Shown here piece by piece: positions 1,505 to 44,404 of a stretch of 49,980 bases of DNA (within the stretch, counting starts at the first letter, position 1; every line of letters starts with the position of its first letter). Both the position numbers and the translations under genes were made by a program. The stretch is from a virus. The notes beneath the pieces are model-generated. The model searched no databases and was not told the origin of the DNA. It saw nothing but the letters and a program-made list of their open reading frames with translations. The stretch spans positions 1 through 49,980 of IMG/VR virus record IMGVR_UViG_3300015195_000003; one strand, given 5' to 3'.

Positions 1505-1533
1505 ATTATACATACTTAGACATAGCTTGTCAA
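1505..1533 (-). promoter_or_regulatory. GTCTAA-box promoter: TTGACA-agctat-GTCTAA-gtatg-TATAAT
   Basis: Reverse complement of 1505-1533. Perfect -35 and -10 hexamers with a 17-nt spacer. The ERF ATG (1497) begins 7 nt after the -10. Confidence 0.65.
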
Positions 1534-1542
1534 GGCTGGTCT

Positions 1543-1805
1543 TTAGATTTTTTCAAGCATTTTTTTATTGGCTTCTTCTGCTTGCCGGCGTCTATTTTCA
1601 GCGACAGGATCGAGTTGTCTTGTCTCCCGGACTTTTTGATCCGCTTGTCTTTCTCGAACTTCTTTTTGTTGTTGAAGACGATCGATTAAATACATCATAT
1701 CCCCATTTGATAGTCGATTGAAACAGGTTTTTTTAAAGTGGTTTTTTGCGTTTTCCTTTAAGTCGATGGCTTTATGGCCAAGCTCTTGTCCTAAAGCGAA
1801 AAACA
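1543..1805 (-). CDS. Hypothetical protein (short form of track ORF 1543..2046)
   Basis: The internal ATG at 1805 (MFFALGQELGHK...) lies just downstream of the stop of gene 1847..2146. The longer form would overlap that gene by 200 nt. Confidence 0.45.
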
Positions 1806-1846
1806 TTCTTTGTTGCGCTGGTGAGTGTTCAGCGATTGGCGCGTGG

Positions 1847-2146
1847 TTATGCGATTGAATCTTCGGGAGGTTGAGGGAAGGGTCTTGCGCCGCGTTTCCC
1901 TGGTTCGTAGGGTTTTTGCTCGGTGACGGTGTAAGTTCCTTCTTTCCACTTGAGAATGTCTGCTCCGAGGACTTTGTAATATTTTCCTTTTCCTCGACAG
2001 ACGTTTCTAGCTCTAAGTTTTCCTGCTTCGATGAGTCGTAATACATAACGATAGTCCGGCTTACCCTTCGTGTTAAGGATAAACTCGTATTTTACAATTT
2101 CCGACGGTATATACTCTCTTGTCGGATCTAAAGGTACTTTTGGCAT
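1847..2146 (-). CDS. Small DNA-binding protein, excisionase/MerR-like HTH
   Basis: YRYVLRLIEAGKLRARNV...YKVLGADILKW resembles HTH_17/Xis-type domains. Starts with ATG. Confidence 0.45.
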   Translation of the reverse strand: MPKVPLDPTREYIPSEIVKYEFILNTKGKPDYRYVLRLIEAGKLRARNVCRGKGKYYKVLGADILKWKEGTYTVTEQKPYEPGKRGARPFPQPPEDSIA

Positions 2147-2156
2147 AATTGGTTAA

Positions 2157-2196
2157 ATGATACAGGTTTCTCAAACTTTTTTCAACATGGTTAGAC
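2157..2196 (-). promoter_or_regulatory. Candidate promoter TTGAAA-N17-TATCAT with an upstream GTCTAA box
   Basis: -35 at 2180-2185, -10 at 2157-2162, ATG (2146) 10 nt downstream, and GTCTAA at 2191-2196. The geometry differs from the other GTCTAA promoters. Confidence 0.35.
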
Positions 2197-2203
2197 AGGG
2201 TTT

Positions 2204-2509
2204 TTAGCCTCGAAACTGCAATTGCCCAATTTTGATTTGTGTCAAAAGATAGTGCATGGTCATTGTTATATACCCAGCTTTGACATCTTTTTCGGCTTCC
2301 AATAATCGATACATTGACTCTTTGATCTTTTGTGTTCCCCTGCTTTTTATAAGTTTGTTTCCGTATACAGATTTGAACACCTCCTCTCTATCTTTTTCGA
2401 GTACGACAAGCGTATCGTCAAAGCTGTTTTGTGAAAATGCTTCTTTGTTTTGATAGTCTGCTTTTTTAAGCAATTTGACTAAAATATCAATGATTGTAAA
2501 TTTATCCAT
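2204..2509 (-). CDS. Hypothetical protein
   Basis: ATG at 2509 (MDKFTIIDIL...) overlaps the upstream stop by 8 nt. The long form in the track is less likely. Confidence 0.55.
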   Translation of the reverse strand: MDKFTIIDILVKLLKKADYQNKEAFSQNSFDDTLVVLEKDREEVFKSVYGNKLIKSRGTQKIKESMYRLLEAEKDVKAGYITMTMHYLLTQIKIGQLQFRG

Positions 2510-2714
2510 TATCAAACTCCAAAATCTCATACACTTTTTTAGCCACATCATTTGAAAGCTCGGTCAACTTTTCTTTTGTTTCGTCTTTTCTAAAGACCAT
2601 CTGCGGGACAGCAATTGCTCCTATTCCCTTGAGAAATTGACCAGCAACAAATTGTTGATTGGCATACACATTTATTGTCAAAACTGGAATATCTTGAAAC
2701 TCTTCATTTGTCAT
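2502..2714 (-). CDS. Hypothetical protein
   Basis: ATG at 2714 (MTNEEFQDIP...) sits directly after the Fic stop (TAATATG). The long form would overlap Fic. Confidence 0.5.
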   Translation of the reverse strand: MTNEEFQDIPVLTINVYANQQFVAGQFLKGIGAIAVPQMVFRKDETKEKLTELSNDVAKKVYEILEFDNG

Positions 2715-2715
2715 A

Positions 2716-4138: not shown

Positions 4139-4252
4139 ATTTTTCGATAAATAATCATTTAAAAAATCTCCCTATTTCGAAAATCCCATAAAGGAAAAAC
4201 CAAAGCGTGAAAACCATACCTATAAAAAAACCATAAAAGAAAAACTCGAATT

Positions 4253-4450
4253 TTACTTTCCAGCTTTTGTCTTCGGTTCTTCGATAGTCTTGTTTTGCTC
4301 GACCCACAATAAAAACTCCCGAATTGCGTTATTGCCGACAAGATTTTTGTCCGACTCCTTCGGGAAGCTATTATATTTTAGTGCAAACTCTCGCAATTGT
4401 GTTATTGAGAATTTTTTCTTGTAATTTTTGATCTCTTCAAAATTGCTCAT
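4253..4450 (-). CDS. Hypothetical protein, first minus-strand gene after the divergent control region
   Basis: 65-aa ORF with an ATG start, downstream of the promoter at 4479-4507. Confidence 0.55.
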   Translation of the reverse strand: MSNFEEIKNYKKKFSITQLREFALKYNSFPKESDKNLVGNNAIREFLLWVEQNKTIEEPKTKAGK

Positions 4451-4478
4451 ACGCTTTACAGTTAAGTATATACTGTTA

Positions 4479-4507
4479 ATTATACATACTTAGACATAGT
4501 TTGTCAA
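4479..4507 (-). promoter_or_regulatory. GTCTAA-box promoter: TTGACA-aactat-GTCTAA-gtatg-TATAAT
   Basis: Perfect hexamers with a 17-nt spacer, nearly identical to the promoter at 1505-1533. Here the ATG (4450) lies 28 nt downstream. Confidence 0.6.
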
Positions 4508-4523: not shown

Positions 4524-4551
4524 TTGACATAATCCTGTGGTCTGCTATAAA
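4524..4551 (+). promoter_or_regulatory. Candidate plus-strand promoter TTGACA-N16-TATAAA
   Basis: Read directly. It is back to back with the minus-strand promoter and points toward the replication block. Confidence 0.4.
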
Positions 4552-4980: not shown

Positions 4981-5777
4981 AGTATTTCCAACATGAATCA
5001 AACGCTCGAAACGACATTAAAATAAAGATGTTGCAGAAAGCGTTTGGGAACGATGGATATGCCACCTATTTTAAAATGCTGGAAATTATCTCTGAGTACG
5101 CAACGGAGCGAAATATTGACGAATGGGGTTTTGTTGATCGCTTTCACAAAACAGATACATTGGCGGACGAGTGCGGTGTTTCCCCTGATCTTTTGAAAAA
5201 AATTCTCCTGAAATGTAACGAGTTAGATCTTTTTGAGCAAAAAGAACACCGCCTTTATTGCGCTAAAATTCTAAAACGTTTGGACAATTATTCCGCAAAA
5301 GTTATCAGAAAATACAAAAAAGACGGTGGAGAAGAAAAATCAGAAAAAAATCCTGAAAAGCAAGAAATCGAAGCTAAAAACGGTGTTCGAACAAAGTCCG
5401 TACAAAGTACGGCTAGAATAGATCTAAAAGAAGAGAAGAGAGAAGAGTCACTTTTGCCAAAAGACAAAAGTTGCACTCACTCGCTTGATCCTTGTGACGA
5501 ATATTGCACTTGGGATATTGGAAACGAACTTGATACGCACAAAAACAATGTTGACGAAATAAAAGACGAGCTTATTGCCTACTTGAAGGCCGGAAACAAG
5601 AAAAAATATAAAATCTTTCATGACACGCTTATTGCCTGGGTGCGGCGAGGTTTGAAAAGCGGCGATATTTCACACATGGAGGAAATCGAGAAAATGGACA
5701 TGGAGGGCGAGCATCCCGATTACAAGAAAAAACAGCGCGAGATTGCCAAAATCCTTGTCCAGAAAGGCGTCTTGTGA
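4977..5777 (+). CDS. DUF4373/DnaD-like replication initiation protein
   Basis: N-terminal YFQHESNARNDIKIKMLQKAFGNDGYATYFKMLEII matches the Lin1244/DUF4373 N-terminal pattern. It lies upstream of the primase zinc-finger and helicase genes. Confidence 0.65.
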   Translation: MKYFQHESNARNDIKIKMLQKAFGNDGYATYFKMLEIISEYATERNIDEWGFVDRFHKTDTLADECGVSPDLLKKILLKCNELDLFEQKEHRLYCAKILKRLDNYSAKVIRKYKKDGGEEKSEKNPEKQEIEAKNGVRTKSVQSTARIDLKEEKREESLLPKDKSCTHSLDPCDEYCTWDIGNELDTHKNNVDEIKDELIAYLKAGNKKKYKIFHDTLIAWVRRGLKSGDISHMEEIEKMDMEGEHPDYKKKQREIAKILVQKGVL

Positions 5778-10795: not shown

Positions 10796-10930
10796 TTATT
10801 TATATAATCCTTTGAAAAAGCCTCTCATAAACATTAGCATAATCCATTCTCCAGCACTAAAGCGCATTCCGTACATACGAAATGTACCTCGTCTTGGTTT
10901 CCAATTTTTATCGTTTGCGTATATCTTCAT
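10796..10930 (-). CDS. Small hypothetical protein (44 aa, not in the track)
   Basis: Hand translation: MKIYANDKNWKPRRGTFRMYGMRFSAGEWIMLMFMRGFFKGLYK. The ATG lies 8 nt after the -10 of promoter 10939-10967. Confidence 0.35.
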   Translation of the reverse strand: MKIYANDKNWKPRRGTFRMYGMRFSAGEWIMLMFMRGFFKGLYK

Positions 10931-10938
10931 ATACTGTA

Positions 10939-10967
10939 ATTATACATGGTTAGACATGGTTTGTCAA
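10939..10967 (-). promoter_or_regulatory. GTCTAA-box promoter: TTGACA-aaccat-GTCTAA-ccatg-TATAAT
   Basis: Perfect hexamers with a 17-nt spacer, read from the reverse complement. Confidence 0.6.
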
Positions 10968-11655: not shown

Positions 11656-12845
11656 TAGTTAACACCTCCCTTTTTCTTCCAAAAATGAAGATGTGAAAAC
11701 AACCATGTGAAAAATCCAATAACAATGTCGATGTGTCGCTCTCCAGCATAGACCTTGAATTGAACACCACCCGGGCTTTGTGGGTTCTTCTTAACCTCGA
11801 TCGTCGAGGGTACTGGTACGGTATGCTCGCCTAACCCTCCCGAGGCTGGCGGTTTATTGTCGTTTTCAGGCGTGGTTGTGTCAGGGTTGTTTACTATTGG
11901 CGTTGTTGGAGCTGGCGTTGTTGTTGGCTCATCTTTTGGCGTCTGAGGCGGATTCGGTTGCGCTGGAACTTCCGGCGTCGTGGTCGTTGGCGATGTTGGG
12001 GCTGGAGTGCTAGTTTGCGTTGATGTTGCGTTTGGCTGAGCAACAGCGCCCAAATCTTCAGCAGTAGGAGCTGTCAAATGAGCATCTCGAATAGCATCCC
12101 AACAATCGGGTCTGAGGATGTGTTGGAATGACCAAAAGTTGACAGACTTGTATCCTTTTGCGGCGTTGATAAAATCAGTCAAATCTTGTGGTTTAAGAAC
12201 GTATGCTGGCTTTAGTTCGTAGTTGTCATAGGCCTGAGCTAGCGGAATGATTGGCTTACGTGACTCTTCAGGCCACTGAGCCTCCCACTTTGACCATTGC
12301 TCATACATCCAGTTAATAGCGGCCTCTGAGGTCATCTTGAAGTCACCCTGATACACCTGTGGCATCACCGCGTCGCAATATTTACCAAATACTTTGTACG
12401 GAAAGCGCGTATGAAAATCAATGATCGGCATTGGTGCGTGAGCGATAAAAGCGTTGGGATTTAATTGTCTTAAGACCTGTAGCATTTGGTCTGCCGCCGC
12501 GTTTGGGTCAGATAAGTGTTCATATTGTGTTTCCGCGTCAAAGACGTGTCCATCGCCTCCTTGGTTGATTGCCCATGATGCAATGTTCGCCTCTCGGTTG
12601 GGGTTTTGTCCATAAATGAAAGACCAAGAATAAATCTTGAGTCCTGCATCATGAAACTTTTTCACAAGATCCGCATTCCATTGATCCCAGGTGTTTTCTC
12701 CGTCCCCTGCTTTTACAACAGCATACGAAATATCATACGCTTTCATTTTTGAAATAATGGCGTTGACGTCGCCGCCGAGAATTGAAGGAAGTTCCCAAAT
12801 CCACATGCCTTTGCCAAATGGGAAGTTTTTATGGAATTTGCTCAT
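11655..12845 (-). CDS. Endolysin candidate: glycoside-hydrolase-like N-terminal domain, Pro/Thr-rich linker, C-terminal hydrophobic anchor
   Basis: KGMWIWE...VVKAGDG...DAETQYE resembles TIM-barrel glycosidase-like domains. A PT linker follows (TSTPAPTSPTTTTPEVPAQPNPPQTPKDEPTTTPAPTTP), and the C-terminus IVIGFFTWLFSHLHFW is hydrophobic. It lies between two TM-protein genes. Confidence 0.6.
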   Translation of the reverse strand: MSKFHKNFPFGKGMWIWELPSILGGDVNAIISKMKAYDISYAVVKAGDGENTWDQWNADLVKKFHDAGLKIYSWSFIYGQNPNREANIASWAINQGGDGHVFDAETQYEHLSDPNAAADQMLQVLRQLNPNAFIAHAPMPIIDFHTRFPYKVFGKYCDAVMPQVYQGDFKMTSEAAINWMYEQWSKWEAQWPEESRKPIIPLAQAYDNYELKPAYVLKPQDLTDFINAAKGYKSVNFWSFQHILRPDCWDAIRDAHLTAPTAEDLGAVAQPNATSTQTSTPAPTSPTTTTPEVPAQPNPPQTPKDEPTTTPAPTTPIVNNPDTTTPENDNKPPASGGLGEHTVPVPSTIEVKKNPQSPGGVQFKVYAGERHIDIVIGFFTWLFSHLHFWKKKGGVN

Positions 12846-20211: not shown

Positions 20212-20499
20212 ATCTGTCATGATCAGCTTGTCGAGTCCCAACTCCTTATTGATCAAGGCAACGTCAAACTGTGAAAGGGCGCGCCCAATATTCTCGCTGG
20301 TGATTGGTGCTGGGCTTCCGTCTTTTTCGGTGAAATTCCACTCTCGAATAAGCTTTTCAAGCATGATGTTTCCAGCTTCAGTTGCATCTTCGGGCAAGCT
20401 TTCAAAAGTATCGCCTTTTGGATTCTTGAGGACAACGACATACGCATCGTCAGTTATGAGGTCAATTCGTTTTAAATTTTCTTCTCCAAGGATCGGCAT
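20137..20499 (-). CDS. Tail assembly chaperone (gpG-like, zero-frame product)
   Basis: 120 aa, acidic, located between the major tail protein and the tape measure. It contains an A9 slippery run near its 3' end. Confidence 0.7.
   Translation of the reverse strand: MPILGEENLKRIDLITDDAYVVVLKNPKGDTFESLPEDATEAGNIMLEKLIREWNFTEKDGSPAPITSENIGRALSQFDVALINKELGLDKLIMTDKKKDSSSSTSTKKSEVVPPQNTSS
20203..20211 (-). other. Slippery sequence AAAAAAAAA for programmed -1 frameshifting
   Basis: Nine T on the plus strand at 20203-20211, equal to GAT AAA AAA AAA GAC in the chaperone frame. Confidence 0.6.
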
Positions 20500-20505
20500 A
20501 ATAAT

Positions 20506-20535
20506 AAGTTAGCAGAGTTAGACAATCAATGTCAA
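20506..20535 (-). promoter_or_regulatory. GTCTAA-box promoter: TTGACA-ttgatt-GTCTAA-ctctg-cTAACTT
   Basis: The -35 abuts the major tail stop. GTCTAA at 20518-20523. The ATG (20499) lies 18 nt after the box. The -10 is weak. Confidence 0.45.
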
Positions 20536-23903: not shown

Positions 23904-26612
23904 CTACAGTTTATTGTCCCGAGTACGCAATACGGACGAATTTTCTGCGTAATTAACATCAATCGGGTCTCTTGATTGCGATTGTTCGGTTCGACTTGTT
24001 TCTCCTTTAACTCGCAATGCTGTTCGATCTTTAATTAATCGCAAAATGGTTGGCAATGTTCCAATAACTGCTGGAACTAATTGTGAATAGATGAAGTACA
24101 GCCCATTTGTAAGATATTGCAGCCTTGGATAGTCGAAAACTGGCTGATTTGTTGGTTGTGCCCATTTATCAAGTTGCGCTACTTCTTTTTTCGTCAATTG
24201 GTTGTTGTCGATAAACAAGTTTGGATAGAAATATTGCAAGCGCTTTATGTCGGGGATAAATTCAGGCAATTTAAATTGCCATTTTGAAACATCGGGACGC
24301 TCTGCTTGTGTGAGTTGTTGCATATCGATAAAGAAAGACGGATAACCATATTGCAGGCGCGCAAGATCTCGGAATGTTTCGTCTAAAATTGGTCTAAACT
24401 TGTCTAAACTGACTCGCTCTTTAGACGTCAAATTCTTATTATCAGGGAATGTATACGGATAAAGATACTGCAATCTGATCAAATCTCTCCATTTCTCATC
24501 ATTTATTGGCAAAAACTTCGAAACATCCACTCGCTCTTTTTGCGTGAGTTGTTGCATGTCGATAAAAAGTGCTGGATAAGTATACTGTAGACGGGACAAA
24601 TCGCGGTACTTATCGTCCTGAATTGGTGCAAATTTATCAATGCTCACTCGTTCGCGCAAGCTCAGCACCTTGTTGTCAATAAAGGACGACTCATACAGAT
24701 ATTGTCGCTTTGGTGAAGCAAAAATATAGTCGTCGCGGATTGGTGCATATTTATCAGGCGAGATGATTACAGCCACCACTCGCGGGGTTAAAGGACTTGT
24801 TTCATAGAGATATTGCACTTTTTTAGTGTCGTAAATGAAATCGGGTCGAATCGGTGAAAACTTATCAACGGTGACTCTTTCCTTTAACGTCAAAAGAACG
24901 GTGTCGATGAAATCATGATCGTAAAGATATTGCAACTTCGGATAAGTTAGTATAAACGGTGGCATGATTGGTTGAAACTTGTCTATTTGTGGGCGCTCCT
25001 TCTTCGTCAATTGCAACACGTCAATAAAATCGTAATCATAAACATATTGTCTTTGTGGAAGTATTCGAAACGTGTCAGGTAAAATCGGTGCAAATTTATC
25101 AACTTGTGGACGCTCCGCCTTTGTCAATGTGATTGCATCCAAAAAGCTATGGTCGTAAAGATATTGCATTCGTGGAATTGAGAAAATAAAGTCTTGCCTG
25201 ATTGGTGCAAATTTATCGACTTGCGCTCTCTCCTTTTTTGTCATTTGTACGGTGTCGATGAAATCATGATCATAGCTATATTGTCGTTGTGGAATAATTC
25301 GAAAGGTGTCGGGCAATATTGGCGCGAACTTATCAACTTGCACTCGCTCTTTTTGGGTCAGAATCTTTTGATCCATTGAGAGCGATTCATACATGTACAT
25401 TGAATTGACACGCGACAAGGATGGTTGATTTGTTTGCGCCAAATAGCCTGCAGGGATCAAGCTAACTGGTGTTGAGTCAACCGATACCCAAAGCGTTGAA
25501 ATATCTGCTCGATTGGTTCCTGTTGTTGAGATGTTTACGCCAACTTGCGCCGTGTCCAAGAGTGCTTTTGTCCATGCGGCGGCATCTGGGTTTTGATACG
25601 TCACCAAAGGATAGTTTTTAGGAGCGGCATTGGCATTGGTTCCCCACGTTGTTGAGTTCGGCGTAATAGCGCTACTGGAAGAGACCGTTCCCGATGCGGC
25701 TTTTTTAATTCTTGCTTGAAACGCCGCAACTGCGGTGGCAACTGAGGCTCGATATCTCACTCCGACAGCGACAACGTTGATTGTGTCGCCTGCTCCGATA
25801 GAACTTGGCGTATCGGTCAAATTAAAGTCGTCAATATGACCTGAGGTAATATCTCCATTAAATGTCGTCACGTCGTCGGGTGTTACTTCGGATGCGCGAG
25901 TAAAGTTATTTGCCGAGCCTGCTGTTCCGCCTGTTTGTGTTGCAAATGCGTTATTGTCACCTGCCGCGTTTGGTTGTAAGTGAATAATTTGTCCGGCTCC
26001 TGGGAATGAGTTTTGATTTCCACCAGTTGCGTCGTTGATTGCAATGTCGTCAAAGTAAAAGTCACCAGCACTTGCCGCGTTTCCGTTAGCGTCGATATTT
26101 GCTCCTATGAGCAATTGATTAACGGTTTCCGTTGCGCCAGTTACGCCTGATTCGGTTGCAACGGTCACGCCGTCAACTAAAAGCGTAATGATATTGCTTG
26201 TTTTGAAGGTTCGAATCTCGATTCGATACCATTGACCAGTGACGAGCGTTTTAGATGAGGCTAAAACAGTTCCGTTGTTGTCTCCGAGTGAAATAAGACC
26301 CGCTGAGCTGAGAAGGACAAATGCCGAGTCGTTGGTGGCACTATTCCAAAGTGAAGCGATAAGTGTATTTCCGTTAGGAAGTGTCCCAGCGCGAAAGTAA
26401 AAACGAGCATAGATATCAGTTGAAAGATCAGTCGCTGAGAATTGATAGGAGAAGTATTTAGCAGTAGCGGCAACGATACTTGTAACTCGACCTGCAAAGC
26501 CACCTGTTCGAACGGTTGTGTTTTGGATTGTTGGAGATCCAACGATTGTGGTAAATTCCACGCCTGCAGTTACTGAGTTTAATTCAAAACCTGATTGCCA
26601 AAGTCTCGCCAT
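23904..26612 (-). CDS. Large virion protein: N-terminal LamG/concanavalin-like domain plus 11 tandem 39-aa repeats
   Basis: 902 aa. The N-terminus is MARLWQSGFELNS...GQWYRIEIR...LLVDGV (lectin-like jelly roll). The C-terminal half is periodic (see the repeat feature). Confidence 0.85.
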   Translation of the reverse strand: MARLWQSGFELNSVTAGVEFTTIVGSPTIQNTTVRTGGFAGRVTSIVAATAKYFSYQFSATDLSTDIYARFYFRAGTLPNGNTLIASLWNSATNDSAFVLLSSAGLISLGDNNGTVLASSKTLVTGQWYRIEIRTFKTSNIITLLVDGVTVATESGVTGATETVNQLLIGANIDANGNAASAGDFYFDDIAINDATGGNQNSFPGAGQIIHLQPNAAGDNNAFATQTGGTAGSANNFTRASEVTPDDVTTFNGDITSGHIDDFNLTDTPSSIGAGDTINVVAVGVRYRASVATAVAAFQARIKKAASGTVSSSSAITPNSTTWGTNANAAPKNYPLVTYQNPDAAAWTKALLDTAQVGVNISTTGTNRADISTLWVSVDSTPVSLIPAGYLAQTNQPSLSRVNSMYMYESLSMDQKILTQKERVQVDKFAPILPDTFRIIPQRQYSYDHDFIDTVQMTKKERAQVDKFAPIRQDFIFSIPRMQYLYDHSFLDAITLTKAERPQVDKFAPILPDTFRILPQRQYVYDYDFIDVLQLTKKERPQIDKFQPIMPPFILTYPKLQYLYDHDFIDTVLLTLKERVTVDKFSPIRPDFIYDTKKVQYLYETSPLTPRVVAVIISPDKYAPIRDDYIFASPKRQYLYESSFIDNKVLSLRERVSIDKFAPIQDDKYRDLSRLQYTYPALFIDMQQLTQKERVDVSKFLPINDEKWRDLIRLQYLYPYTFPDNKNLTSKERVSLDKFRPILDETFRDLARLQYGYPSFFIDMQQLTQAERPDVSKWQFKLPEFIPDIKRLQYFYPNLFIDNNQLTKKEVAQLDKWAQPTNQPVFDYPRLQYLTNGLYFIYSQLVPAVIGTLPTILRLIKDRTALRVKGETSRTEQSQSRDPIDVNYAENSSVLRTRDNKL
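24084..25361 (-). repeat. About 11 in-frame tandem repeats of 117 nt (39 aa), consensus LTxKERxxVDKFAPIxxDxFRxxxRLQYLYDxxFIDxxx
   Basis: Units anchored on VDKF/IDKF/VSKF/LDKF/VSKW/LDKW/PDKY, each with a QY-x-Y element. One unit is shortened. The period is also visible at the DNA level (ttatcaacttg-type motifs). Confidence 0.85.
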
Positions 26613-28148: not shown

Positions 28149-28664
28149 TTAAACCTCTGGAGCCCTATTAGCGTCTTGTGCGCTTGGCAATGCTTCTTTG
28201 TTTGCAGTTGCGGCAGTTGCGGCGGCTTCTTTTGCCTTTATTTCCTCTTCGGTTAATTCTTTGCCGAATTCATCGTAAACTTTCGCGCGCGTTGTTGGCT
28301 CAGGTGTTGTGTCTTTTGGAAGCGTTACATCTTTGCCAGTTACAGGAGTGTTGTCTTTTGCTACTTTTTCGCCTTTATCGTTGACTGCTTCGCCCTTCTC
28401 TTCGAGTGCTTTCTTCTGCTCTGCTGTCAAAGCGGCTTCTGCAACATAGCCACCGTTTTTATTAACGTCGAATTTTTCAGTATGAGGAGCCTGTGGTGCG
28501 CTGGTGAATGAAACACCTTCGATTGAATCGTCAGAAAGCTTTGCTTCTTTAGCGGCAATCAAATCTTGCGCTGTTTTGTCGTCAATGTCGTGATAGGTCT
28601 GAAAAGGAATCAAATAAAATTCGTTGTATTTGATCTTTGAATTTTCGAGTATTGTGATCTTCAT
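28149..28664 (-). CDS. Structural-module protein with a charged Lys/Glu/Ala-rich C-terminal half
   Basis: 171-aa ORF. The ATG lies 18 nt after a GTCTAA box. Confidence 0.6.
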   Translation of the reverse strand: MKITILENSKIKYNEFYLIPFQTYHDIDDKTAQDLIAAKEAKLSDDSIEGVSFTSAPQAPHTEKFDVNKNGGYVAEAALTAEQKKALEEKGEAVNDKGEKVAKDNTPVTGKDVTLPKDTTPEPTTRAKVYDEFGKELTEEEIKAKEAAATAATANKEALPSAQDANRAPEV

Positions 28665-28671
28665 AATAATA

Positions 28672-28700
28672 ATTTAGCAGACTTAGACAGCGGTTGTCAA
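28672..28700 (-). promoter_or_regulatory. GTCTAA-box promoter: TTGACA-accgct-GTCTAA-gtctg-cTAAATT
   Basis: The -35 abuts the upstream stop (28701). GTCTAA at 28683-28688. The ATG (28664) lies 6 nt after TAAATT. Confidence 0.5.
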
Positions 28701-32050: not shown

Positions 32051-32099
32051 CGTACTTTGTTCGAACAATGTTCGTACCAACTTCGAACATGATACGAAC
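32051..32099. repeat. Cluster of nested inverted repeats built on TTCGAAC/GTTCGTA
   Basis: 12-bp palindrome ttgttcgaacaa (32057-32068). atgttcg (32068-74) pairs with cgaacat (32084-90), and gttcgta (32070-76) pairs with tacgaac (32093-99). Another cgaaca lies at 31984. Confidence 0.7.
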
Positions 32100-37622: not shown

Positions 37623-37651
37623 ATAGTAGCAAAGTGCTTGCTATATGGCAA
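37623..37651 (-). promoter_or_regulatory. Promoter TTGCCA-TATAGCAAGCACTTTGC-TACTAT (TATAGCA-type spacer)
   Basis: Read from the reverse complement, with a 17-nt spacer. It shares TATAGCA...TGC with the promoters at 38033 and 39146. Confidence 0.5.
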
Positions 37652-38032: not shown

Positions 38033-38061
38033 ATTATAGCAGACTGTTTGCTATAAGTCAA
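38033..38061 (-). promoter_or_regulatory. Promoter TTGACT-TATAGCAAACAGTCTGC-TATAAT with a palindromic spacer
   Basis: Read from the reverse complement. The spacer plus -10 contain TATAGCA-N7-TGCTATA. The ATG (38023) lies 9 nt after the -10. Confidence 0.65.
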
Positions 38062-39145: not shown

Positions 39146-39174
39146 ATTATAGCAAACAGTCTGCTATAAGTCAA
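39146..39174 (-). promoter_or_regulatory. Promoter TTGACT-TATAGCAGACTGTTTGC-TATAAT (the same element with its core inverted)
   Basis: Identical to the promoter at 38033-38061, except that the central 7-mer is GACTGTT instead of its reverse complement AACAGTC. Confidence 0.65.
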
Positions 39175-40583: not shown

Positions 40584-41000
40584 ATGCCGTTCAAAGACAA
40601 TGTGGAAAAAGCAAAGTATATGCGAAAATATCGCCTCGACAGACGCGCTCGAGGTTTATGCGTTATTTGTGGAGAAAAACGTATATCGGAATGGTTTTGT
40701 GTCAAACATCTCGCAAAGGGAAACGAAAAAAGTAAGCAGCAAAATATAGACTCTCGTCTTGAGTGTATCAATCATTATGGAGCTTTTTGCGTTTGTTGCG
40801 GAGAAAAAGAGGATAAGTTTTTAAGTATTGATCATGTAAATAACGATGGCTTTATTCATCGAAAAACTACCAAAAACTTTAGAAATATTTATTTGTGGCT
40901 AAAAAAGAATAATTATCCAAATATCGTTCAGGTGCTTTGTTTCAATTGCAATCTAGGAAAAAGAGTTAACGGTGGAATTTGCCCTCATCTTAAAGCGTGA
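40584..41000 (+). CDS. HNH endonuclease (free-standing, homing-endonuclease-like placement)
   Basis: CVCCGEKEDKFLSIDHVNNDG...LCFNCNLGK contains the HNH core with flanking Cys pairs. It is on the opposite strand from its neighbours, and its 3' end overlaps the ParB-like gene by 11 nt. Confidence 0.8.
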   Translation: MPFKDNVEKAKYMRKYRLDRRARGLCVICGEKRISEWFCVKHLAKGNEKSKQQNIDSRLECINHYGAFCVCCGEKEDKFLSIDHVNNDGFIHRKTTKNFRNIYLWLKKNNYPNIVQVLCFNCNLGKRVNGGICPHLKA

Positions 41001-41703
41001 GGATTTTGCATGGCAAACCTTGTTCTTGGAGCTTATTATATGTTGCCTCTTGCTCGGACTCGTCTTTGCATTCGACAACCACTTGAAACTGCGCTTTATA
41101 TTCGCCGTCTTTCTTTTTTGCAGGCTCCTGTGTGGTCATTTTTGCCTGATCTTGTGCAAAGATTTTCAAACTAACAGGCGCTTGTAACTCCAATTTATAA
41201 TCAGGTGAGTGTAACAATTCGACGTGCGGTTGAAGTAATGTATATAATGCTTTTTGATCATACGCGCCTGCTGGGTCATTATCGGATATCCCGTACTCAA
41301 GCATCATTTGTTCGATTGAAGGAAATTGCTCTGACTCCATCTTGCCGTCTAAAACAGCGCGATATTTTTTGACTCCTTCAACTTCTTCCTCTGCGACGCC
41401 AAGTTCTGTCACCCAAACTTCGTTGAATTGTCCGACGCGATTGATAGCGTGTTCTCCAGCTTCGTCGGACCACGTGAGTTCGTTTTCATTTAAAAATCTG
41501 ATTGCTCGAAGGCGCATATTTCCTCCAACAACGACGCCCTCTGAATTCACAAAAATTGGTTTGTATTGACCCAAACGACCGACTTGTTTTCTCAATCGAA
41601 GCATGTCTTCATCCGTTATCGTTCGAGGATTTTTGTCCCATTCGATCAGGGAGTCAAGCGTGGCGAGGATCTTTCCGTTTGTGGTTGTTCGCTTCTCTAA
41701 CAT
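40990..41703 (-). CDS. ParB N-terminal domain (ParB/Srx-like) protein
   Basis: IEWDKNPRTITDEDMLRLRKQVGRLGQYKPIFVNSEGVVVGGNMRLRAI fits the ParBc motif series. No C-terminal methyltransferase motif was seen. Confidence 0.7.
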   Translation of the reverse strand: MLEKRTTTNGKILATLDSLIEWDKNPRTITDEDMLRLRKQVGRLGQYKPIFVNSEGVVVGGNMRLRAIRFLNENELTWSDEAGEHAINRVGQFNEVWVTELGVAEEEVEGVKKYRAVLDGKMESEQFPSIEQMMLEYGISDNDPAGAYDQKALYTLLQPHVELLHSPDYKLELQAPVSLKIFAQDQAKMTTQEPAKKKDGEYKAQFQVVVECKDESEQEATYNKLQEQGLPCKILTL

Positions 41704-41710
41704 TAAAAAT

Positions 41711-41739
41711 ATTATGCCGAGTTAGACGGGATTTGTCAA
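41711..41739 (-). promoter_or_regulatory. GTCTAA-box promoter: TTGACA-aatccc-GTCTAA-ctcgg-CATAAT
   Basis: Read from the reverse complement. The ParB-like ATG (41703) lies 7 nt after the -10. Confidence 0.6.
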
Positions 41740-41832: not shown

Positions 41833-41961
41833 TTAATTCTTTTTGACTAGATTTTCGTATTGTTCGATTGTCTTTTTCATGTGAAAATAGGCATGTCTAA
41901 ATTCCCCTACCTCCATGAGCGATAAGTACAATTGATTTTCTCGAAATGTACAGATCTCCAT
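41833..41961 (-). CDS. Small ORF (42 aa, tentative)
   Basis: Hand translation: MEICTFRENQLYLSLMEVGEFRHAYFHMKKTIEQYENLVKKN. Confidence 0.3.
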   Translation of the reverse strand: MEICTFRENQLYLSLMEVGEFRHAYFHMKKTIEQYENLVKKN

Positions 41962-41980
41962 GAACTTAGTTCGCACCTCT

Positions 41981-42784
41981 TCAAAGTCGTCCAGAGTCTC
42001 CTTTTGCATACGCGAAATGGTTCGTTAATATTTCATAACCGTCCGGCAAAACACGAATCATGTGTTCAAACATCGCAGAGTTTGCCCCGTCGGCCGTTTT
42101 CAACTCCCACCCATCATCGTCAATTTTTCCCCATTTATCCCGTCCGTTGGTCAAGCAAGGTTCAAGACAAAGAATCTTTCCAGCAACCAGCTTTTCCTCC
42201 ATGTATTTTTCATATTGGTCAAACTGTTTAGGATCTTGAAAATAAGGATTAGGAACTTGATAAAACGCGTTCTCGTGCATTTCTTTACCGATATAGTGAC
42301 CACATAATTGATGATTAATCAAAAGTTTTCGTTCATTTGCGACGCGTTGCATCGCGGCGGCTACTTCCCCGATCATGACTCCTTCTTTGACTTTGGCAAT
42401 GCCAGCATAAAGCACTTTTTTCGCATAACGCAAAAGTATTTCGTCTTTTTCGGAGAGTTTGCCAACACCAAGTGAGAAAGCGGCGTCGCCACAATTCCCC
42501 TCACTATCACGAATACCAATATCGAGATTAACAAGATCGCCTTCCTCAAGAAAAATGCTTTCACTCGGGATGCCGTGAGCTATCACGTTGTTAACGGAAA
42601 TACATGCGACGGCTGGAAAGGCTGTTCGCGCCCAATTTGGTTTGTAGCCTTGATTGTAGGATGTTCCCCCTAACTTTTTCAGCTCAGACGCTCCAACTGC
42701 GTTAATCGTAAAAGTATCAATGCCTGGGCGAACATGCTCTTTCATTTTAAGAAGAACTTTTGAGACTATTTCATGGGCTTTCAT
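41981..42784 (-). CDS. map: Type I methionine aminopeptidase (peptidase M24A)
   Basis: CISVNNVIAHGIP, GDLVNLDIG, CGHYIGKEMHE, LEP and DGWELKTADGANSAMFEHMI line up with the metal-ligand blocks of E. coli Map (CISINEVVCHGIP, GDIVNIDV, CGHGIGRGFHE, IEP, DGWTVKTKDRSLSAQYEHTI). Confidence 0.85.
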   Translation of the reverse strand: MKAHEIVSKVLLKMKEHVRPGIDTFTINAVGASELKKLGGTSYNQGYKPNWARTAFPAVACISVNNVIAHGIPSESIFLEEGDLVNLDIGIRDSEGNCGDAAFSLGVGKLSEKDEILLRYAKKVLYAGIAKVKEGVMIGEVAAAMQRVANERKLLINHQLCGHYIGKEMHENAFYQVPNPYFQDPKQFDQYEKYMEEKLVAGKILCLEPCLTNGRDKWGKIDDDGWELKTADGANSAMFEHMIRVLPDGYEILTNHFAYAKGDSGRL

Positions 42785-43284
42785 AGTTTGGAGTCCTCTT
42801 GCACCTCTTCGACCAGCATTTTGGGCGGCTTAACAAATGATTTATGCGGCTCAATCTTTTCCCACTCTTCAGAAAATTCACTGAGTAGAACCATTAAATC
42901 CAATAACTCTGATTTATTTTTAAGATAGAAACTACCACCTCCACGAATTCGAGAAATGGATATTTCGCGCTCGGAGTTTTTCGGTCGTTCGTCTTCGGTC
43001 TCAACAGTCACTTGAAAAATATCTTGTTCGCTTTTGTAATCGGTTCGACTAAGTGTTGATTTTTTCATGGCTTTTTTAATTCGATATTGCGCTTTTCTCT
43101 GAATATCATATTCTCTATTTTTCTCTCGATACTCCCTATTTGTTCTTGATTTTTCAGCTTTTCCTTCCGCAGTTAACAAATATCGTTTTATTTTTCTTAA
43201 TACGATTCTTCCCTTGTGTGTTTGCCGATATTTATACACTGCAAGCTCGTTTCGTTTGCGTTTTTGAAACTCTGACAGCGCCAT
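42781..43284 (-). CDS. Basic hypothetical protein
   Basis: 167-aa Lys/Arg-rich ORF with an ATG start. Confidence 0.6.
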   Translation of the reverse strand: MALSEFQKRKRNELAVYKYRQTHKGRIVLRKIKRYLLTAEGKAEKSRTNREYREKNREYDIQRKAQYRIKKAMKKSTLSRTDYKSEQDIFQVTVETEDERPKNSEREISISRIRGGGSFYLKNKSELLDLMVLLSEFSEEWEKIEPHKSFVKPPKMLVEEVQEDSKL

Positions 43285-43491
43285 AATATACTATGAGATA
43301 GACTCAACCATTTGACGGGATTTTCTCTAATCAAATAGCTGGCTAATTCTATTTTCCTGACGCCTGCGCGTCGTCACCAGTTCTTCTCTCTTGTCGTCAA
43401 ACGGAAAAAAACGACTTTTTTCAATTTTTCTCAGGCTCTAATTAGGCCATACGTCGTAGAATATTGTTTCTACGTCACGAAAAGGCTTTTT

Positions 43492-43647
43492 TTAGTTGTG
43501 ATGCAATTTTTTCAATTCGGCTAGACGTTCCGAGGTTAAGCGATTGTTTGGATTTCGCTTCAATTCAGCCTGCATTCGTTCCATTTTCTTCGCGCCGTCG
43601 TTGTTTTCTTGTGTCGGCGTTCTCTTTCGTCTTGCGTCTTTAGGCAT
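43492..43647 (-). CDS. Small basic protein (51 aa, not in the track)
   Basis: Hand translation: MPKDARRKRTPTQENNDGAKKMERMQAELKRNPNNRLTSERLAELKKLHHN. GGAGGAG lies 8 nt upstream. Confidence 0.5.
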   Translation of the reverse strand: MPKDARRKRTPTQENNDGAKKMERMQAELKRNPNNRLTSERLAELKKLHHN

Positions 43648-43888
43648 TTCCGCTTACTCCTCCTTCATTGTTTGCTGTTGCCGACCCAAAACCTCCGCCT
43701 GACGGTAATTTTGGCTCATAGACAACCATTGCCGTAAAAAGAATATTGGAAGACCCGTCAACATGCTTATCAACGATCGTTGTTCTATGTTCGACAAAAA
43801 CAACATCAGCTTGTAATGTTTCAAGAAAACTATTGATACTTTTCTCAAGTGGATCGATGAGTCGATCGCTAAAAATCTTAACTTTCAT
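43640..43888 (-). CDS. Hypothetical protein
   Basis: The ATG at 43888 (MKVKIFSDRL...) is preferred over the track start. Confidence 0.55.
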   Translation of the reverse strand: MKVKIFSDRLIDPLEKSINSFLETLQADVVFVEHRTTIVDKHVDGSSNILFTAMVVYEPKLPSGGGFGSATANNEGGVSGNA

Positions 43889-44060
43889 TTTTACAATCCT
43901 TTCCAAACTTGCCTTGCAAAGCTTCAGCAATTGAATCTAAATCAGCAACGACAATAACCAAACCCACGACAATAACCCAATCGATACCCCACAATTGTTT
44001 AACAACTGCTAGGATAACGAAGTTCAATAATCGTAACAATAATTTTAATTTAATAGTCAT
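43878..44060 (-). CDS. Small membrane protein
   Basis: The ATG at 44060 is preceded by CAGGAGGAAAACCA. Hydrophobic stretch LLRLLNFVILAVV...WVIVVGLVIVVA. An alternative start lies at 44099. Confidence 0.55.
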   Translation of the reverse strand: MTIKLKLLLRLLNFVILAVVKQLWGIDWVIVVGLVIVVADLDSIAEALQGKFGKDCKNES

Positions 44061-44098
44061 TGGTTTTCCTCCTGTAATAACGCAATATAGATTTTCCA

Positions 44099-44368
44099 TT
44101 ATTTGTCTCCTTTCGCGAGCTTTTCGTATTTCTCAATCAGTCGATTCAAATTTTCTACATGCCCTTCCTCTTTTTTGATTTCCTGCTTTTTTAATTCGAT
44201 CGAAGCGTTTTCTCCTTCAACCAACTTAATTCTGTCAGCGTTTTTAGGATAGCTTTTGATAGCGGTCAAGCGAGCCTCTATCGCCTCTTCTTTGGCGCAA
44301 ATGGTACTGACCACACTTTCTCGAAGTTCTTTAAATTTCTTAAGCTTTAACTCGATCATTGAAAACAT
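44099..44368 (-). CDS. Coiled-coil hypothetical protein
   Basis: 89-aa ORF. The ATG lies 18 nt after a GTCTAA box. Confidence 0.6.
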   Translation of the reverse strand: MFSMIELKLKKFKELRESVVSTICAKEEAIEARLTAIKSYPKNADRIKLVEGENASIELKKQEIKKEEGHVENLNRLIEKYEKLAKGDK

Positions 44369-44374
44369 AAAATA

Positions 44375-44404
44375 AATATAGCAGACTTAGACACGCCTTG
44401 TAAA
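44375..44404 (-). promoter_or_regulatory. GTCTAA-box promoter: TTTACA-aggcgt-GTCTAA-gtctg-cTATATT
   Basis: Read from the reverse complement. The ATG (44368) lies 6 nt after TATATT. Confidence 0.5.

What the first reader, a model, noticed from the sequence alone, without database searches (positions are those of the whole stretch)
1505..44404. Promoter family with an invariant GTCTAA box exactly 6 nt after the -35
Eight minus-strand sites share the architecture -35 / N6 / GTCTAA / N5 / -10:
- 1505-1533: TTGACA agctat GTCTAA gtatg TATAAT
- 4479-4507: TTGACA aactat GTCTAA gtatg TATAAT
- 10939-10967: TTGACA aaccat GTCTAA ccatg TATAAT
- 20506-20535: TTGACA ttgatt GTCTAA ctctg CTAACT
- 28672-28700: TTGACA accgct GTCTAA gtctg CTAAAT
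- 41711-41739: TTGACA aatccc GTCTAA ctcgg CATAAT
- 44375-44404: TTTACA aggcgt GTCTAA gtctg CTATAT
- A degenerate copy lies at 2191-2196.

In six of the sites the ATG follows the box by exactly 18-19 nt. A fixed hexamer in a promoter spacer is not required by sigma70. It suggests a phage- or host-encoded factor site, or a non-standard sigma specificity. Two sub-classes are visible: GTATG/CCATG-TATAAT versus (G/C)TCTG-CTA(A/T)(A/C)T, perhaps reflecting temporal classes.
Basis: seen in the sequence. Interest (0 to 1): 0.72.

Follow-up and report, generated by a model that had tools for sequence, protein, structure and literature searches.

The report
Leaderless phage promoters sharing GTCTAA box
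Seven near-perfect bacterial-type promoters in this uncultured phage genome share an invariant GTCTAA hexamer between their two recognition elements. Most start transcription right at the gene's ATG, and the hexamer is most likely a docking site for a still-unidentified regulator.

Summary
Seven minus-strand sites match TTGACA-N6-GTCTAA, against 0.33 expected by chance.

- **What they are.** All seven are complete sigma70/sigmaA-type promoters with 17-18 nt spacers.
In six of the seven, the -10 lies 6-8 nt from an ATG. These are promoters for leaderless mRNAs, which explains the fixed 18-19 nt from box to ATG.
- **The genome.** The window is a complete circular assembly of about 49.85 kb. It is a novel siphophage whose head and tail genes look actinophage-like. 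No sigma factor, repressor or integrase was detected.
- **Relatives.** Metagenomic relatives keep the leaderless promoter design at orthologous genes. Only four lineages carry GTCTAA. In these it is invariant while the flanking spacer bases are only 39-59% identical, so it is under selection and lineage-specific.
- **Best reading (about 0.45).** It is a binding site for a sequence-specific trans-acting factor, probably a repressor, placed at about -24..-19.
- **Main rival (about 0.25).** RNA polymerase itself reads it as a spacer element at the Z-element position.

No candidate protein could be identified. Verdict: a new variant of a known kind, of moderate interest.

The parts
1495..1533 (-). 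Box promoter 1: -35 TTGACA 1528-1533, GTCTAA 1516-1521, -10 TATAAT 1505-1510, ATG 1495-1497 (7 nt after the -10). Drives the ERF recombinase gene 901-1497, then the YqaJ exonuclease gene 330-935.
   Evidence: The N-terminus and the promoter-abutting ATG are conserved in homologues.
4448..4507 (-). Box promoter 2: -35 4502-4507, GTCTAA 4490-4495, -10 TATAAT 4479-4484. It is the only member with a leader (about 28 nt, containing ACAGT/ACTGT inverted repeats) before ATG 4448-4450 (65-aa gene). It lies back-to-back with the plus-strand promoter-like site 4524-4551 of the replication operon.
10928..10967 (-). Box promoter 3: -35 10962-10967, GTCTAA 10950-10955, -10 TATAAT 10939-10944, ATG 10928-10930 (8 nt after the -10; 44-codon ORF).
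   Evidence: Orthologous promoters with the box are found in L086 at 7889 and L085 at 16481.
20497..20535 (-). Box promoter 4: -35 20530-20535 directly after the stop codon of the tail-tube gene, GTCTAA 20518-20523, TGc plus -10 TAACTT 20506-20511, ATG 20497-20499. The 120-aa gene lies between the tail tube and tape-measure genes. The whole 36-nt intergenic gap is the promoter.
   Evidence: Orthologue in L085 at 7093.
28662..28700 (-). Box promoter 5: -35 28695-28700 directly after a stop codon, GTCTAA 28683-28688, TGc plus -10 TAAATT 28671-28676, ATG 28662-28664 (171-aa gene downstream of the capsid gene).
   Evidence: Orthologues with the box in L007, L008 and L087; orthologues without it in L004 and L009.
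41701..41739 (-). Box promoter 6: -35 41734-41739, GTCTAA 41722-41727, -10 CATAAT 41711-41716, ATG 41701-41703 (237-aa ParB-like N-domain protein).
44366..44404 (-). Box promoter 7: -35 TTTACA 44399-44404, GTCTAA 44387-44392, TGc plus -10 TATATT 44375-44380, ATG 44366-44368 (89-aa helical-hairpin protein, then a 73-aa membrane protein).
44430..44494 (-). Possible auxiliary sites upstream of promoter 7: TTCTCGTCTAAT (box 44489-44494) and GCGCTCGTCTAG (44437-44442). Both are conserved in the more distant relative ph007 but not in ph003. Closer to the -35 there are also two TGGGGAnAA repeats conserved in all three phages. Whether these sites belong to the system is uncertain.
2157..2196 (-). Exact GTCTAA (2191-2196) with no -35 upstream. 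It lies 5 nt upstream of a weaker promoter-like site (TTGAAA 2180-2185, 17 nt, TATCAT 2157-2162). The same arrangement occurs in ph007, but the whole region is about 83% identical, so its conservation says little.
24381..24426 (.). Cluster of four GTCTAAA heptamers inside the 902-aa gene: three direct copies 11 and 10 nt apart, plus one inverted copy. They are read in different codon phases. This could be a binding array for the same factor or a local duplication. It is not seen in the ph085 orthologue.

Best explanation
The seven sites are strong promoters used by the host's primary-sigma (sigma70/sigmaA-type) RNA polymerase. In six of them transcription is inferred to start at or next to the A of the ATG, so the mRNA has no leader and no Shine-Dalgarno sequence.

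The GTCTAA hexamer (fuller motif T-GTCTAA-S-Y-M-T-G) sits at about -24..-19. It is not part of the basal promoter. It is a lineage-specific cis-regulatory box kept by selection. Most likely it is the recognition site of a sequence-specific protein that binds in the spacer and competes with, or modulates, RNA polymerase. That would place a set of otherwise constitutive, near-consensus promoters under one common control. The factor is more likely phage-encoded than host-encoded, and more likely a repressor than an activator.

Shown: promoter anatomy, leaderless geometry, conservation and phyletic distribution.

Inferred: the TSS position, the existence of a trans factor, and the sign of its effect.
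For: **Promoter and leaderless geometry**
- 7 matches against 0.33 expected.
- All seven have a -35, a 17/18-nt spacer and a -10.
- The architecture promoter + ATG 5-8 nt after the -10 + ORF of at least 40 codons occurs 9 times on the coding strand, against 0.37 in Markov-1 random sequence.
- TAnnnT lies exactly 6 nt before the ATG in about 15 of 85 genes.
- The same geometry appears at orthologous genes in six related metagenomic phages.
- The ERF N-terminus is conserved from that ATG.
- A TA signal close to the start codon is the published signature of leaderless genes (PMC3160421).

**Selection on the box**
- Within the window the box is 100% identical across 21 pairs. The -35 is 95%, the -10 is 62%, and the flanking N6 and N5 are 39% and 66%.
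- In divergent orthologous pairs that retain the box (phages with 59-66% protein identity; the selection is circular for the box itself), N6 is only 55% identical.
- 17 instances in four phages give T-GTCTAA-SYMTG.
- The one orthologue that lost the box (ph007, ParB-like gene) is described in the Against line.

**Not basal**
- Other good promoters in the window lack the box (12881, 21943, 38061, 39174, 4524+).
- Orthologous promoters in L004, L005/L138 and L009 have unrelated or ACAAA-like sequence in its place.

**Other boxes in the same system**
- A second promoter family in the window carries a palindrome in its spacer (D5/I6).
- ph007 uses TAACGTACRG at two promoters where the window has GTCTAA.
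- More distant relatives carry TTGACA-n-GGTGG.
- So lineage-specific spacer boxes are a recurring feature of this phage group.

**Extra copies and precedent**
- Extra GTCTAR copies lie upstream of promoter 7, conserved in ph007, and there is a four-copy cluster at 24381-24426.
- Elsewhere in metagenomes GTCTAA, in the same N6 register, is one half of a GTCTAA-N5-TTAGAC operator-like palindrome upstream of BlaI/MecI-like repressor genes. Proteins that read this hexamer in a promoter spacer therefore plausibly exist.
Against: - No DNA-binding regulator was found. Pfam and PHROGs scans of about 60 ORFs gave no HTH, RHH, repressor or sigma hit.
- The only gene whose presence matches the box in every locus seen (58 aa, 41833-42009) models as a plain three-helix bundle. 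The 89-aa product of the gene behind promoter 7 models as a helical hairpin. Neither resembles a known DNA binder.
- The box keeps an almost fixed register to the start: 18 nt to the ATG in 11 of 17 instances. A steric repressor does not need that; an RNA-polymerase-read element does.
- The site is a single asymmetric 6-7 bp unit with no second half-site, which is short for a typical dimeric regulator.
- The examples of the box outside a spacer are weak. L085 5671 overlaps a stop codon, and 2191 lies in a region that is about 83% identical overall.
- One orthologue in a box-carrying phage has lost the box (ph007 ParB-like promoter, GTACAG).
- The host is unknown, and there are no transcript or binding data.
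Confidence: 0.45

Rival explanations
1. GTCTAA is a promoter element read by the transcription machinery itself. It could be a host-specific version of the Z-element contacted by the beta' zipper, or a spacer contact of sigma region 3. Alternatively it could be read by a small phage protein riding on RNA polymerase, as in sigma appropriation. In this view it boosts or qualifies initiation at a fixed register rather than blocking it.
For: - The box occupies -23..-18 (sub-class 1) or -24..-19 (sub-class 2). This is the same window as the Z-element mapped at -22..-18 in T7A1 (PMC3173786).
- Orientation is always the same.
- The distance to the ATG/TSS is 18 nt in 11 of 17 instances, while the distance to the -35 absorbs the 17/18-nt spacer variation.
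- Sub-class 2 promoters have non-consensus -10 hexamers, the situation in which spacer elements matter.
- The best phyletic-pattern candidates are small helical proteins with no DNA-binding fold. That is the sort of protein that binds RNA polymerase.
Against: - The sequence differs from known Z-elements (AACCT, AACAT). The Z-element consensus is described as loose with effects under 2-fold, whereas this hexamer is more invariant than the -10 itself.
- Orthologous promoters in sister phages, and about half of the good promoters in the same genome, work without it.
- The register is not absolute: 4, 5 or 6 nt from the -35, and 5, 6 or 8 nt from the -10.
Confidence: 0.25
2. The box has no function of its own. 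The seven promoters are paralogous copies of one promoter cassette, spread by duplication or gene conversion, and GTCTAA is inherited baggage.
For: - The sites form repeat families of 25-51 nt (D3, D6, D7, D13).
- Sub-class members share more than the box: sites 1 and 2 are 80% identical over 51 nt.
- The same N6 (aactat) precedes a different hexamer in ph005, which suggests shared promoter ancestry.
Against: - Neutral retention cannot explain a hexamer identical in 17 instances across four phages whose proteins are only 50-66% identical, while the adjacent 4-6 bases are near random.
- Gene conversion would homogenise the flanks as well.
Confidence: 0.1
3. The sites are recognised by a non-standard or phage-encoded sigma factor, with GTCTAA as part of its specificity.
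For: A related box-less phage (L004) encodes a protein with a Sigma70_r4 domain, so sigma-like genes do occur in this phage group.
Against: - The promoters have canonical TTGACA and TATAAT/TAnnnT at 17-18 nt.
- The complete window genome has no sigma or RNA polymerase hit and no homologue of the L004 protein.
- Nothing is conserved at a -10-like distance downstream of GTCTAA other than the canonical -10.
Confidence: 0.04

Closest known systems
Cluster A mycobacteriophage repressor sites (L5 gp71 operators and 'stoperators'; PMC9283540)
   Same: Short asymmetric sites occur many times in one phage genome, always in one orientation relative to transcription. They lie at promoters and in tiny intergenic gaps inside operons. 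One site overlaps a consensus-like TTGACA early promoter.
   Different: Those sites are 13-mers, number more than 20 per genome, and are bound by an identified HTH repressor of a temperate phage. Here there is a 6-7 bp core at 7 promoters (plus a few extra copies), always inside a promoter spacer. No repressor homologue and no integrase were found.
Z-element of bacterial promoters (beta' zipper contact, -22..-18; PMC3173786)
   Same: Same position in the spacer and same fixed orientation and register relative to the -10. It is proposed to matter most when the -10 is not consensus.
   Different: Different sequence (AACCT/AACAT versus GTCTAA). The Z-element has a loose consensus and small effects and is not lineage-specific. 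Here the hexamer is invariant and dispensable in sister phages.
Factor sites placed between -35 and -10: lambda Q-binding element in PR', MerR-type operators (own knowledge, not tested here)
   Same: A regulatory protein's recognition sequence lies within the spacer of a sigma70 promoter.
   Different: The Q-binding element works with a sigma-dependent promoter-proximal pause signal, and no conserved -10-like element is seen in the initial transcribed (coding) region here. MerR operators are palindromes in overlong 19-20 bp spacers, whereas these spacers are 17-18 bp and the box is asymmetric.
BlaI/MecI/CopY-like autoregulated promoters with GTCTAA-N5-TTAGAC, found in unrelated JGI contigs
   Same: Identical geometry, TTGACA-N6-GTCTAA-N5-(-10), with the same hexamer in the same register.
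   Different: In those contigs the hexamer is one arm of a 17-bp palindrome whose other arm supplies the -10 (TAGACT), and a winged-helix repressor gene follows. The window has no second arm and no such gene.
Leaderless genes with a TA signal close to the start codon (Actinobacteria, Deinococcus-Thermus, some Firmicutes; PMC3160421)
   Same: TAnnnT lies 6-8 nt before the ATG, there is no Shine-Dalgarno sequence, and a TG extended -10 is present in lower-GC genomes.
   Different: Here it is a phage-wide strategy in a 41% GC genome with full consensus -35 elements. It includes internal promoters wedged between a stop codon and the next ATG in the virion module.

Membership tests
sigma70/sigmaA-type promoter | -35 hexamer close to TTGACA | tested here: met
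   6 of 7 sites have TTGACA and 1 has TTTACA.
sigma70/sigmaA-type promoter | -10 hexamer TAnnnT at 17 +/- 1 nt from the -35 | tested here: met
   TATAAT x3 and CATAAT x1 at 17 nt; TAACTT, TAAATT and TATATT at 18 nt with TGc upstream.
sigma70/sigmaA-type promoter | Placed upstream of, and co-oriented with, a gene; conserved at orthologous genes | tested here: met
   All seven are on the coding strand, in gaps directly before genes. Orthologous promoters are present in relatives.
sigma70/sigmaA-type promoter | Transcription initiates there | not testable with these tools
   No transcript data, and the host is unknown.
Leaderless mRNA gene | -10 element 5-8 nt upstream of the start codon, so the TSS coincides with the start codon | tested here: met
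   6 of 7 sites: 6 nt x3, 7 nt x2, 8 nt x1. Found 9 times against 0.37 expected.
Leaderless mRNA gene | No Shine-Dalgarno sequence; start codon supported by conservation | tested here: met
   No SD-like motif before these ATGs, while other genes in the window have GGAGG. MLEK and MKIT starts, and the ERF N-terminus, are conserved.
Extended -10 promoter (TGn) | TG at -15/-14, one base before the -10 | tested here: inconclusive
   Met in sites 20518, 28683 and 44387 (TGc-TAnnnT). In sites 1516, 4490 and 10950 the TG abuts TATAAT without the spacer base. Site 41722 has GGc.
Z-element (beta' zipper) | Located at about -22..-18 | tested here: met
   The box lies at -23..-18 or -24..-19, counted from the inferred TSS.
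Z-element (beta' zipper) | Sequence resembling AACCT/AACAT; general feature of the host's promoters | tested here: not met
   GTCTAA differs from these sequences. The box is absent from other promoters in the window and from orthologues in sister phages.
Stoperator-type repressor system (cluster A actinophages) | Identifiable immunity repressor gene (gp71-like HTH) and lysogeny functions | tested here: not met
   No HTH, repressor or integrase hit in Pfam or PHROGs scans of about 60 ORFs of the complete genome.
Stoperator-type repressor system (cluster A actinophages) | Asymmetric sites, one orientation relative to transcription, many per genome, also outside promoters | tested here: inconclusive
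   The sites are asymmetric and co-oriented, which meets the feature. There are only 7 promoter sites plus a few extra copies (2191, 44437, 44489, 24381-24426), and the core is 6-7 bp rather than 13 bp.
Palindromic operator of a dimeric repressor (for example the BlaI/MecI type seen) | Second, inverted half-site at fixed spacing | tested here: not met
   There is no TTAGAC arm. The partial symmetry GACA-N5-TGTC with the -35 is lost where the box lies 4-5 nt from the -35.
Alternative or phage sigma-factor promoter | Sigma gene present; non-canonical -35/-10 | tested here: not met
   No sigma gene in the window and no homologue of the L004 Sigma70_r4 protein. The hexamers are canonical.

The most novel reading that the evidence does not exclude
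GTCTAA is read in fixed register (-24..-19) by a small, fold-wise unremarkable phage protein that rides on the host RNA polymerase. Candidates are the 58-aa three-helix protein encoded at 41833-42009, or the 89-aa helical hairpin behind promoter 7. This would be a new kind of promoter-specificity adaptor, analogous in logic to T4 MotA/AsiA, that works on promoters keeping a consensus -35 and producing leaderless mRNAs. Sister phages would use other boxes (TAACGTACRG, n-GGTGG) with their own adaptors.
Probability: 0.12. Interest if true: 0.8.

Novelty: new variant of a known kind. Interest (0 to 1): 0.45.

Why it matters
If the box is a factor site, one unknown protein coordinates about half of the strong promoters of a whole, previously undescribed group of phages from uncultured hosts. 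The exact, short, conserved motif gives a direct handle to fish that protein out.

The genome is also an unusually clean natural example of promoters fused to start codons (stop codon, 36-nt promoter, ATG). That is useful for studying leaderless translation and for compact synthetic expression units in Gram-positive or actinobacterial hosts.

If RNA polymerase itself reads the box, it would be the first sharply defined, sequence-specific spacer element at the Z-element position.

Tried and rejected
**Searches for relatives and host**
- No near-DNA match in the phage collection.
- The portal protein found only two distant relatives (about 35% identity) in viral contigs and none in GTDB genome contigs. 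A terminase profile also found none in genome contigs, so there is no prophage or host clue. The terminase profile against viral contigs returned 75 more distant loci that were used for comparison.
- The terminase protein sequence is not on record by exact look-up. One relative had no DNA on file.
- Pattern scans of IMG/VR and JGI metagenomes for the box architecture returned only chance hits or unrelated families.

**Search for the factor**
- Pfam and PHROGs scans of about 60 ORFs and PDB sequence searches found no regulator.
- Phyletic profiling singled out the 58-aa gene 41833-42009. AlphaFold and Foldseek gave a generic three-helix bundle.
- The 89-aa protein that I suspected to be ribbon-helix-helix modelled as a helical hairpin.
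- The ParB-like protein behind promoter 6 occurs in both box-plus and box-minus phages, and is fused to a methylase in one. I rejected it as the specific factor.

**Ideas dropped**
- A dimeric operator made of TTGACA and its near-inverted copy TGTCTAA. The spacing is not kept.
- The box 2 nt upstream of a -35 in L085. It is a Val-stop codon pair.
- Site 48776 as an eighth promoter. It lies inside a coding sequence with an overlapping stop and start, and the orthologue has a Shine-Dalgarno sequence instead.
- An RNA element. There are no Rfam hits and no tRNAs, and the box lies upstream of the inferred TSS.

**Literature**
- Searches for the motif found nothing relevant.

Full report
**Observation**

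The expectation is 0.33, and no shuffle of 100 reached seven. The hexamer alone is not enriched, with 25 found against 19 expected, so the architecture is what is special. Reading the minus strand confirms the quoted sequences. A simple consensus scan ranks these sites among the best promoter-like matches in the window, including the only three perfect 12/12 matches. A PWM built from the seven sites finds no further member.

The 'degenerate copy' at 2191 is an exact GTCTAA with no -35 upstream. It lies 5 nt upstream of the -35-like TTGAAA of a weaker promoter-like site.

**What the window is**

The first 127 bases recur at the end of the window. The window is therefore a complete circular assembly of about 49,853 bp, from a JGI metagenome contig. 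Almost all genes are on the minus strand.

Gene content:
- Virion genes: Mu-like portal and F protein, protease/scaffold, HK97-type capsid, tail tube, tape measure, Dit and Tal.
- Recombination and replication genes: ERF and YqaJ recombination genes, and a plus-strand DnaD-like/primase/DnaB-like replication operon.
- Others: Fic, a methionine aminopeptidase, and a ParB-like N-domain protein.
- Not found in about 60 ORFs scanned with Pfam and PHROGs: sigma factor, RNA polymerase, repressor, integrase, or any helix-turn-helix regulator.

There is no close DNA relative among sequenced phages. The nearest cultured relatives of the portal, capsid and Tal proteins are actinophages at about 30% identity. 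The ERF protein is closest to clostridial prophage proteins. The host is unknown. A monoderm host, possibly a low-GC actinobacterium, is an inference only.

**The key structural point**

In six of the seven sites the -10 hexamer ends 6-8 nt before an ATG that opens the downstream gene. RNA polymerase starts about 7 nt downstream of the -10, so these promoters should produce leaderless mRNAs beginning at the A of the ATG.

The architecture (promoter, ATG 5-8 nt after the -10, ORF of at least 40 codons) occurs nine times on the coding strand, against 0.37 in Markov-1 random sequences. About 15 of 85 genes have TAnnnT exactly 6 nt before the ATG. Only a minority of genes have a GGAGG-type Shine-Dalgarno sequence.

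At sites 20518 and 28683 the whole 36-nt intergenic gap is the promoter: stop codon, TTGACA ... TAnnnT, six bases, ATG.

A TA signal close to the start codon is the published signature of leaderless genes. Such genes are common in Actinobacteria and Deinococcus-Thermus and present in some Firmicutes (PMC3160421).

The start codons are supported by conservation. MLEK and MKIT starts are kept in all relatives. The ERF N-terminus aligns from that ATG, while an internal GTG is not conserved.

**Sub-classes**

- Sub-class (i): a 17-nt spacer with consensus TATAAT. These are sites 1516, 4490 and 10950, all in the recombination/replication arm.
- Sub-class (ii): an 18-nt spacer with TGc followed by TAACTT, TAAATT or TATATT. 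These are extended -10 promoters with weaker hexamers.

A (G/C)TCTG(C/T) motif just before the -10 also occurs in box-less promoters and in box-less relatives. It is therefore a general promoter feature of this phage group and not part of the box. Orthologues in relatives keep the sub-class of their counterpart in the window.

**Relatives**

Terminase, tail and ERF homologues led to metagenomic contigs of related phages. All of them use the same design of a promoter abutting the ATG at homologous genes.

GTCTAA is found only in four of them:
- the window;
- ph003 (L003/L086, 92% terminase identity);
- ph007 (L007/L008/L137, 63%);
- ph085 (L085/L087, 59%).

In the regions seen it is absent from L004, L005/L138 and L009. 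Their orthologous spacers carry unrelated or ACAAA-like sequence.

Across 17 instances the motif is T-GTCTAA-S-Y-M-T-G, and the four to six bases between it and the -35 are close to random. Pairwise identity by segment:

| Comparison | Box | -35 | -10 | N6 | N5 |
|---|---|---|---|---|---|
| Within the window (21 pairs) | 100% | 95% | 62% | 39% | 66% |
| Divergent orthologous pairs that retain the box | 100% (by selection) | 100% | 95% | 55% | 66% |

(All values.)

One orthologue in a box-carrying phage has lost the box: the ParB-like promoter of ph007 has GTACAG. The hexamer is therefore under purifying selection, yet it is dispensable for promoter function as such.

**Other boxes**

- The window has a second promoter family (37651, 38061, 39174). 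Its spacer and -10 form the palindrome TATAGCA-N7-TGCTATA (D5/I6).
- ph007 has TAACGTAC(A/G)G at the ERF and ParB-like promoters, where the window has GTCTAA.
- More distant relatives share TTGACA-n-GGTGG(G/T)T.

Lineage-specific boxes in promoter spacers are thus a recurring property of this phage group. This is what one expects from co-evolving regulators and their sites.

**Extra copies**

Upstream of promoter 7 lie TTCTCGTCTAAT and GCGCTCGTCTAG. Both are conserved in ph007 but not in the closer ph003. Two TGGGGAnAA repeats are conserved in all three.

Inside the 902-aa gene, three GTCTAAA copies lie 11 and 10 nt apart, with one inverted copy nearby. They are read in different codon phases. 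This cluster is not present in the ph085 orthologue, so its meaning is open.

**Mechanism**

I favour a sequence-specific trans-acting protein, for four reasons:
1. The hexamer is more invariant than the -10.
2. It is lineage-specific.
3. Sister lineages have other boxes.
4. There are extra copies near one promoter.

The promoters are near-consensus and the site lies between the -35 and the -10, so repression is the more likely sign.

A precedent for the geometry turned up by chance. Unrelated JGI contigs carry TTGACA-N6-GTCTAA-N5-TTAGACT upstream of BlaI/MecI-like repressor genes. The window lacks both the second arm and such a gene.

The main rival is an element read by RNA polymerase or by a polymerase-bound phage protein:
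- The box lies exactly where the Z-element was mapped, at -22..-18 (PMC3173786).
- It always has the same orientation.
- It is 18 nt from the ATG in 11 of 17 instances.

Against this rival:
- The Z-element has a loose consensus and small effects.
- The sequence differs.
- Sister phages do without it.
- The offsets vary (4-6 nt from the -35; 5, 6 or 8 nt from the -10).

Pure common descent is unlikely, given the contrast between the box and its flanks. A special sigma factor is not supported.

**Search for the factor**

Phyletic profiling over the loci in hand leaves one gene that is present in all four box-carrying phages and replaced by unrelated ORFs in three box-less ones. This is the 58-aa gene 41833-42009, just upstream of promoter 6.

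Box-less phages carry a 64-65 aa HTH_17/MerR-like gene at the locus where box-carrying phages have the 89-aa and 73-aa genes behind promoter 7.

Single-sequence AlphaFold models give a three-helix bundle for the 58-aa protein (pLDDT 85) and a helical hairpin for the 89-aa protein (pLDDT 93). Foldseek returns only generic hits for both. Neither protein is supported as a DNA binder. Both remain candidates for a polymerase-binding role, but that is speculation.

**Comparison with known systems and verdict**

Membership as sigma70/sigmaA-type promoters and as leaderless genes is met on all sequence criteria. Initiation itself could not be tested.

The closest regulatory analogue is the operator/stoperator system of cluster A mycobacteriophages (PMC9283540). 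However, its defining repressor gene, its 13-mer site and its large site number are not met. The Z-element matches in position only.

I rate this a new variant of a known kind: a promoter family carrying a shared regulatory box. It is of moderate interest. The most useful new facts are the leaderless design and the comparative proof that the hexamer is selected and lineage-specific.

Noticed in passing
window 5385-5455 and 32007-32077: A 71-nt segment inside the DnaD/Lin1244_N-like gene recurs, inverted and 77% matching, in a 300-nt intergenic gap of the head module. It contains TGTTCGAACA and GTACnAAGTAC repeats. It looks like two copies of an origin or replisome-organiser binding region, reminiscent of SPP1 oriL/oriR (that comparison is from memory).
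   Followed up: partly
window 37623-37651, 38033-38061, 39146-39174 (minus strand): A second promoter family: TTG(A/C)C(T/A)-TATAGCA-N7-TGCTA(T/C)A. The 8-nt palindrome arms span the spacer and the -10, which looks like the operator of a dimeric regulator. It is conserved in L003.
   Followed up: partly
window 24381-24426: Four GTCTAAA heptamers within 46 nt of the 902-aa gene: three direct copies 11 and 10 nt apart, and one inverted. They fall in different codon phases. The cluster is absent from the ph085 orthologue.
   Followed up: partly
window 1-127 and 49854-49980: Identical 127-nt ends. The window is a complete circular assembly of about 49,853 bp.
   Followed up: yes
window 44405-44500; L003 about 1650-1765; L137 about 12070-12185: Two TGGGGAnAA repeats 11 nt apart lie just upstream of the -35 of promoter 7 and are conserved in three phages. 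Distal GTCTAA and GTCTAG copies are conserved only between the window and ph007.
   Followed up: partly
window, many gene starts (for example 14397-15251, 27269-27727, 30299-30688, 30692-31900, 33007-34602): Many virion genes start with (A)ACCT-ATG or AACC-ATG. About 15 genes have TAnnnT exactly 6 nt before the ATG, several of them without any -35. Only a minority of genes have GGAGG.
   Followed up: partly
L105, L108, L112, L118, L121, L128 (JGI contigs): An unrelated family of promoters, TTGACA-N6-GTCTAA-N5-TTAGACT, often with a second GTCTAA..TTAGA copy. Several lie upstream of 125-aa BlaI/MecI/CopY-like repressor genes.
   Followed up: partly
L026, L030, L031, L036, L037 (IMG/VR relatives, 33-35% terminase identity): Leaderless promoters sharing TTGACA-(a/c)-GGTGG(G/T)T directly after the -35. 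In L030, L037 and L031 they are flanked by CCCAC, which forms an inverted repeat around the -35.
   Followed up: no
L137 6036 and 14598 (ph007): The ERF and ParB-like promoters of ph007 share TAACGTAC(A/G)G in the spacer where the window has GTCTAA. L137 351 has the one-mismatch variant GTCCAA.
   Followed up: partly
L004 931-1533; L004 3107-3304; L005 4987-5181; L011 about 1814-2008: The box-less relative L004 encodes a Sigma70_r4 protein. The box-less relatives L004, L005 and L011 encode a 64-65 aa HTH_17/MerR-like protein. The window has homologues of neither.
   Followed up: partly
window 40584-41000 (+ strand): A Cys/His-rich 138-aa ORF on the opposite strand looks like an HNH endonuclease by eye. 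It is absent from relatives and is flanked by the near-palindrome TGTTATTATAACATTATAA.
   Followed up: no
window 41981-42784 and orthologues in all close relatives: A type I methionine aminopeptidase (Peptidase_M24) gene is conserved throughout this phage group.
   Followed up: no
window 24283-25349: The 902-aa gene contains 117-nt tandem repeats (three copies, 24952-25349) and a 234-nt-spaced pair (24283-24419 and 24517-24653).
   Followed up: no
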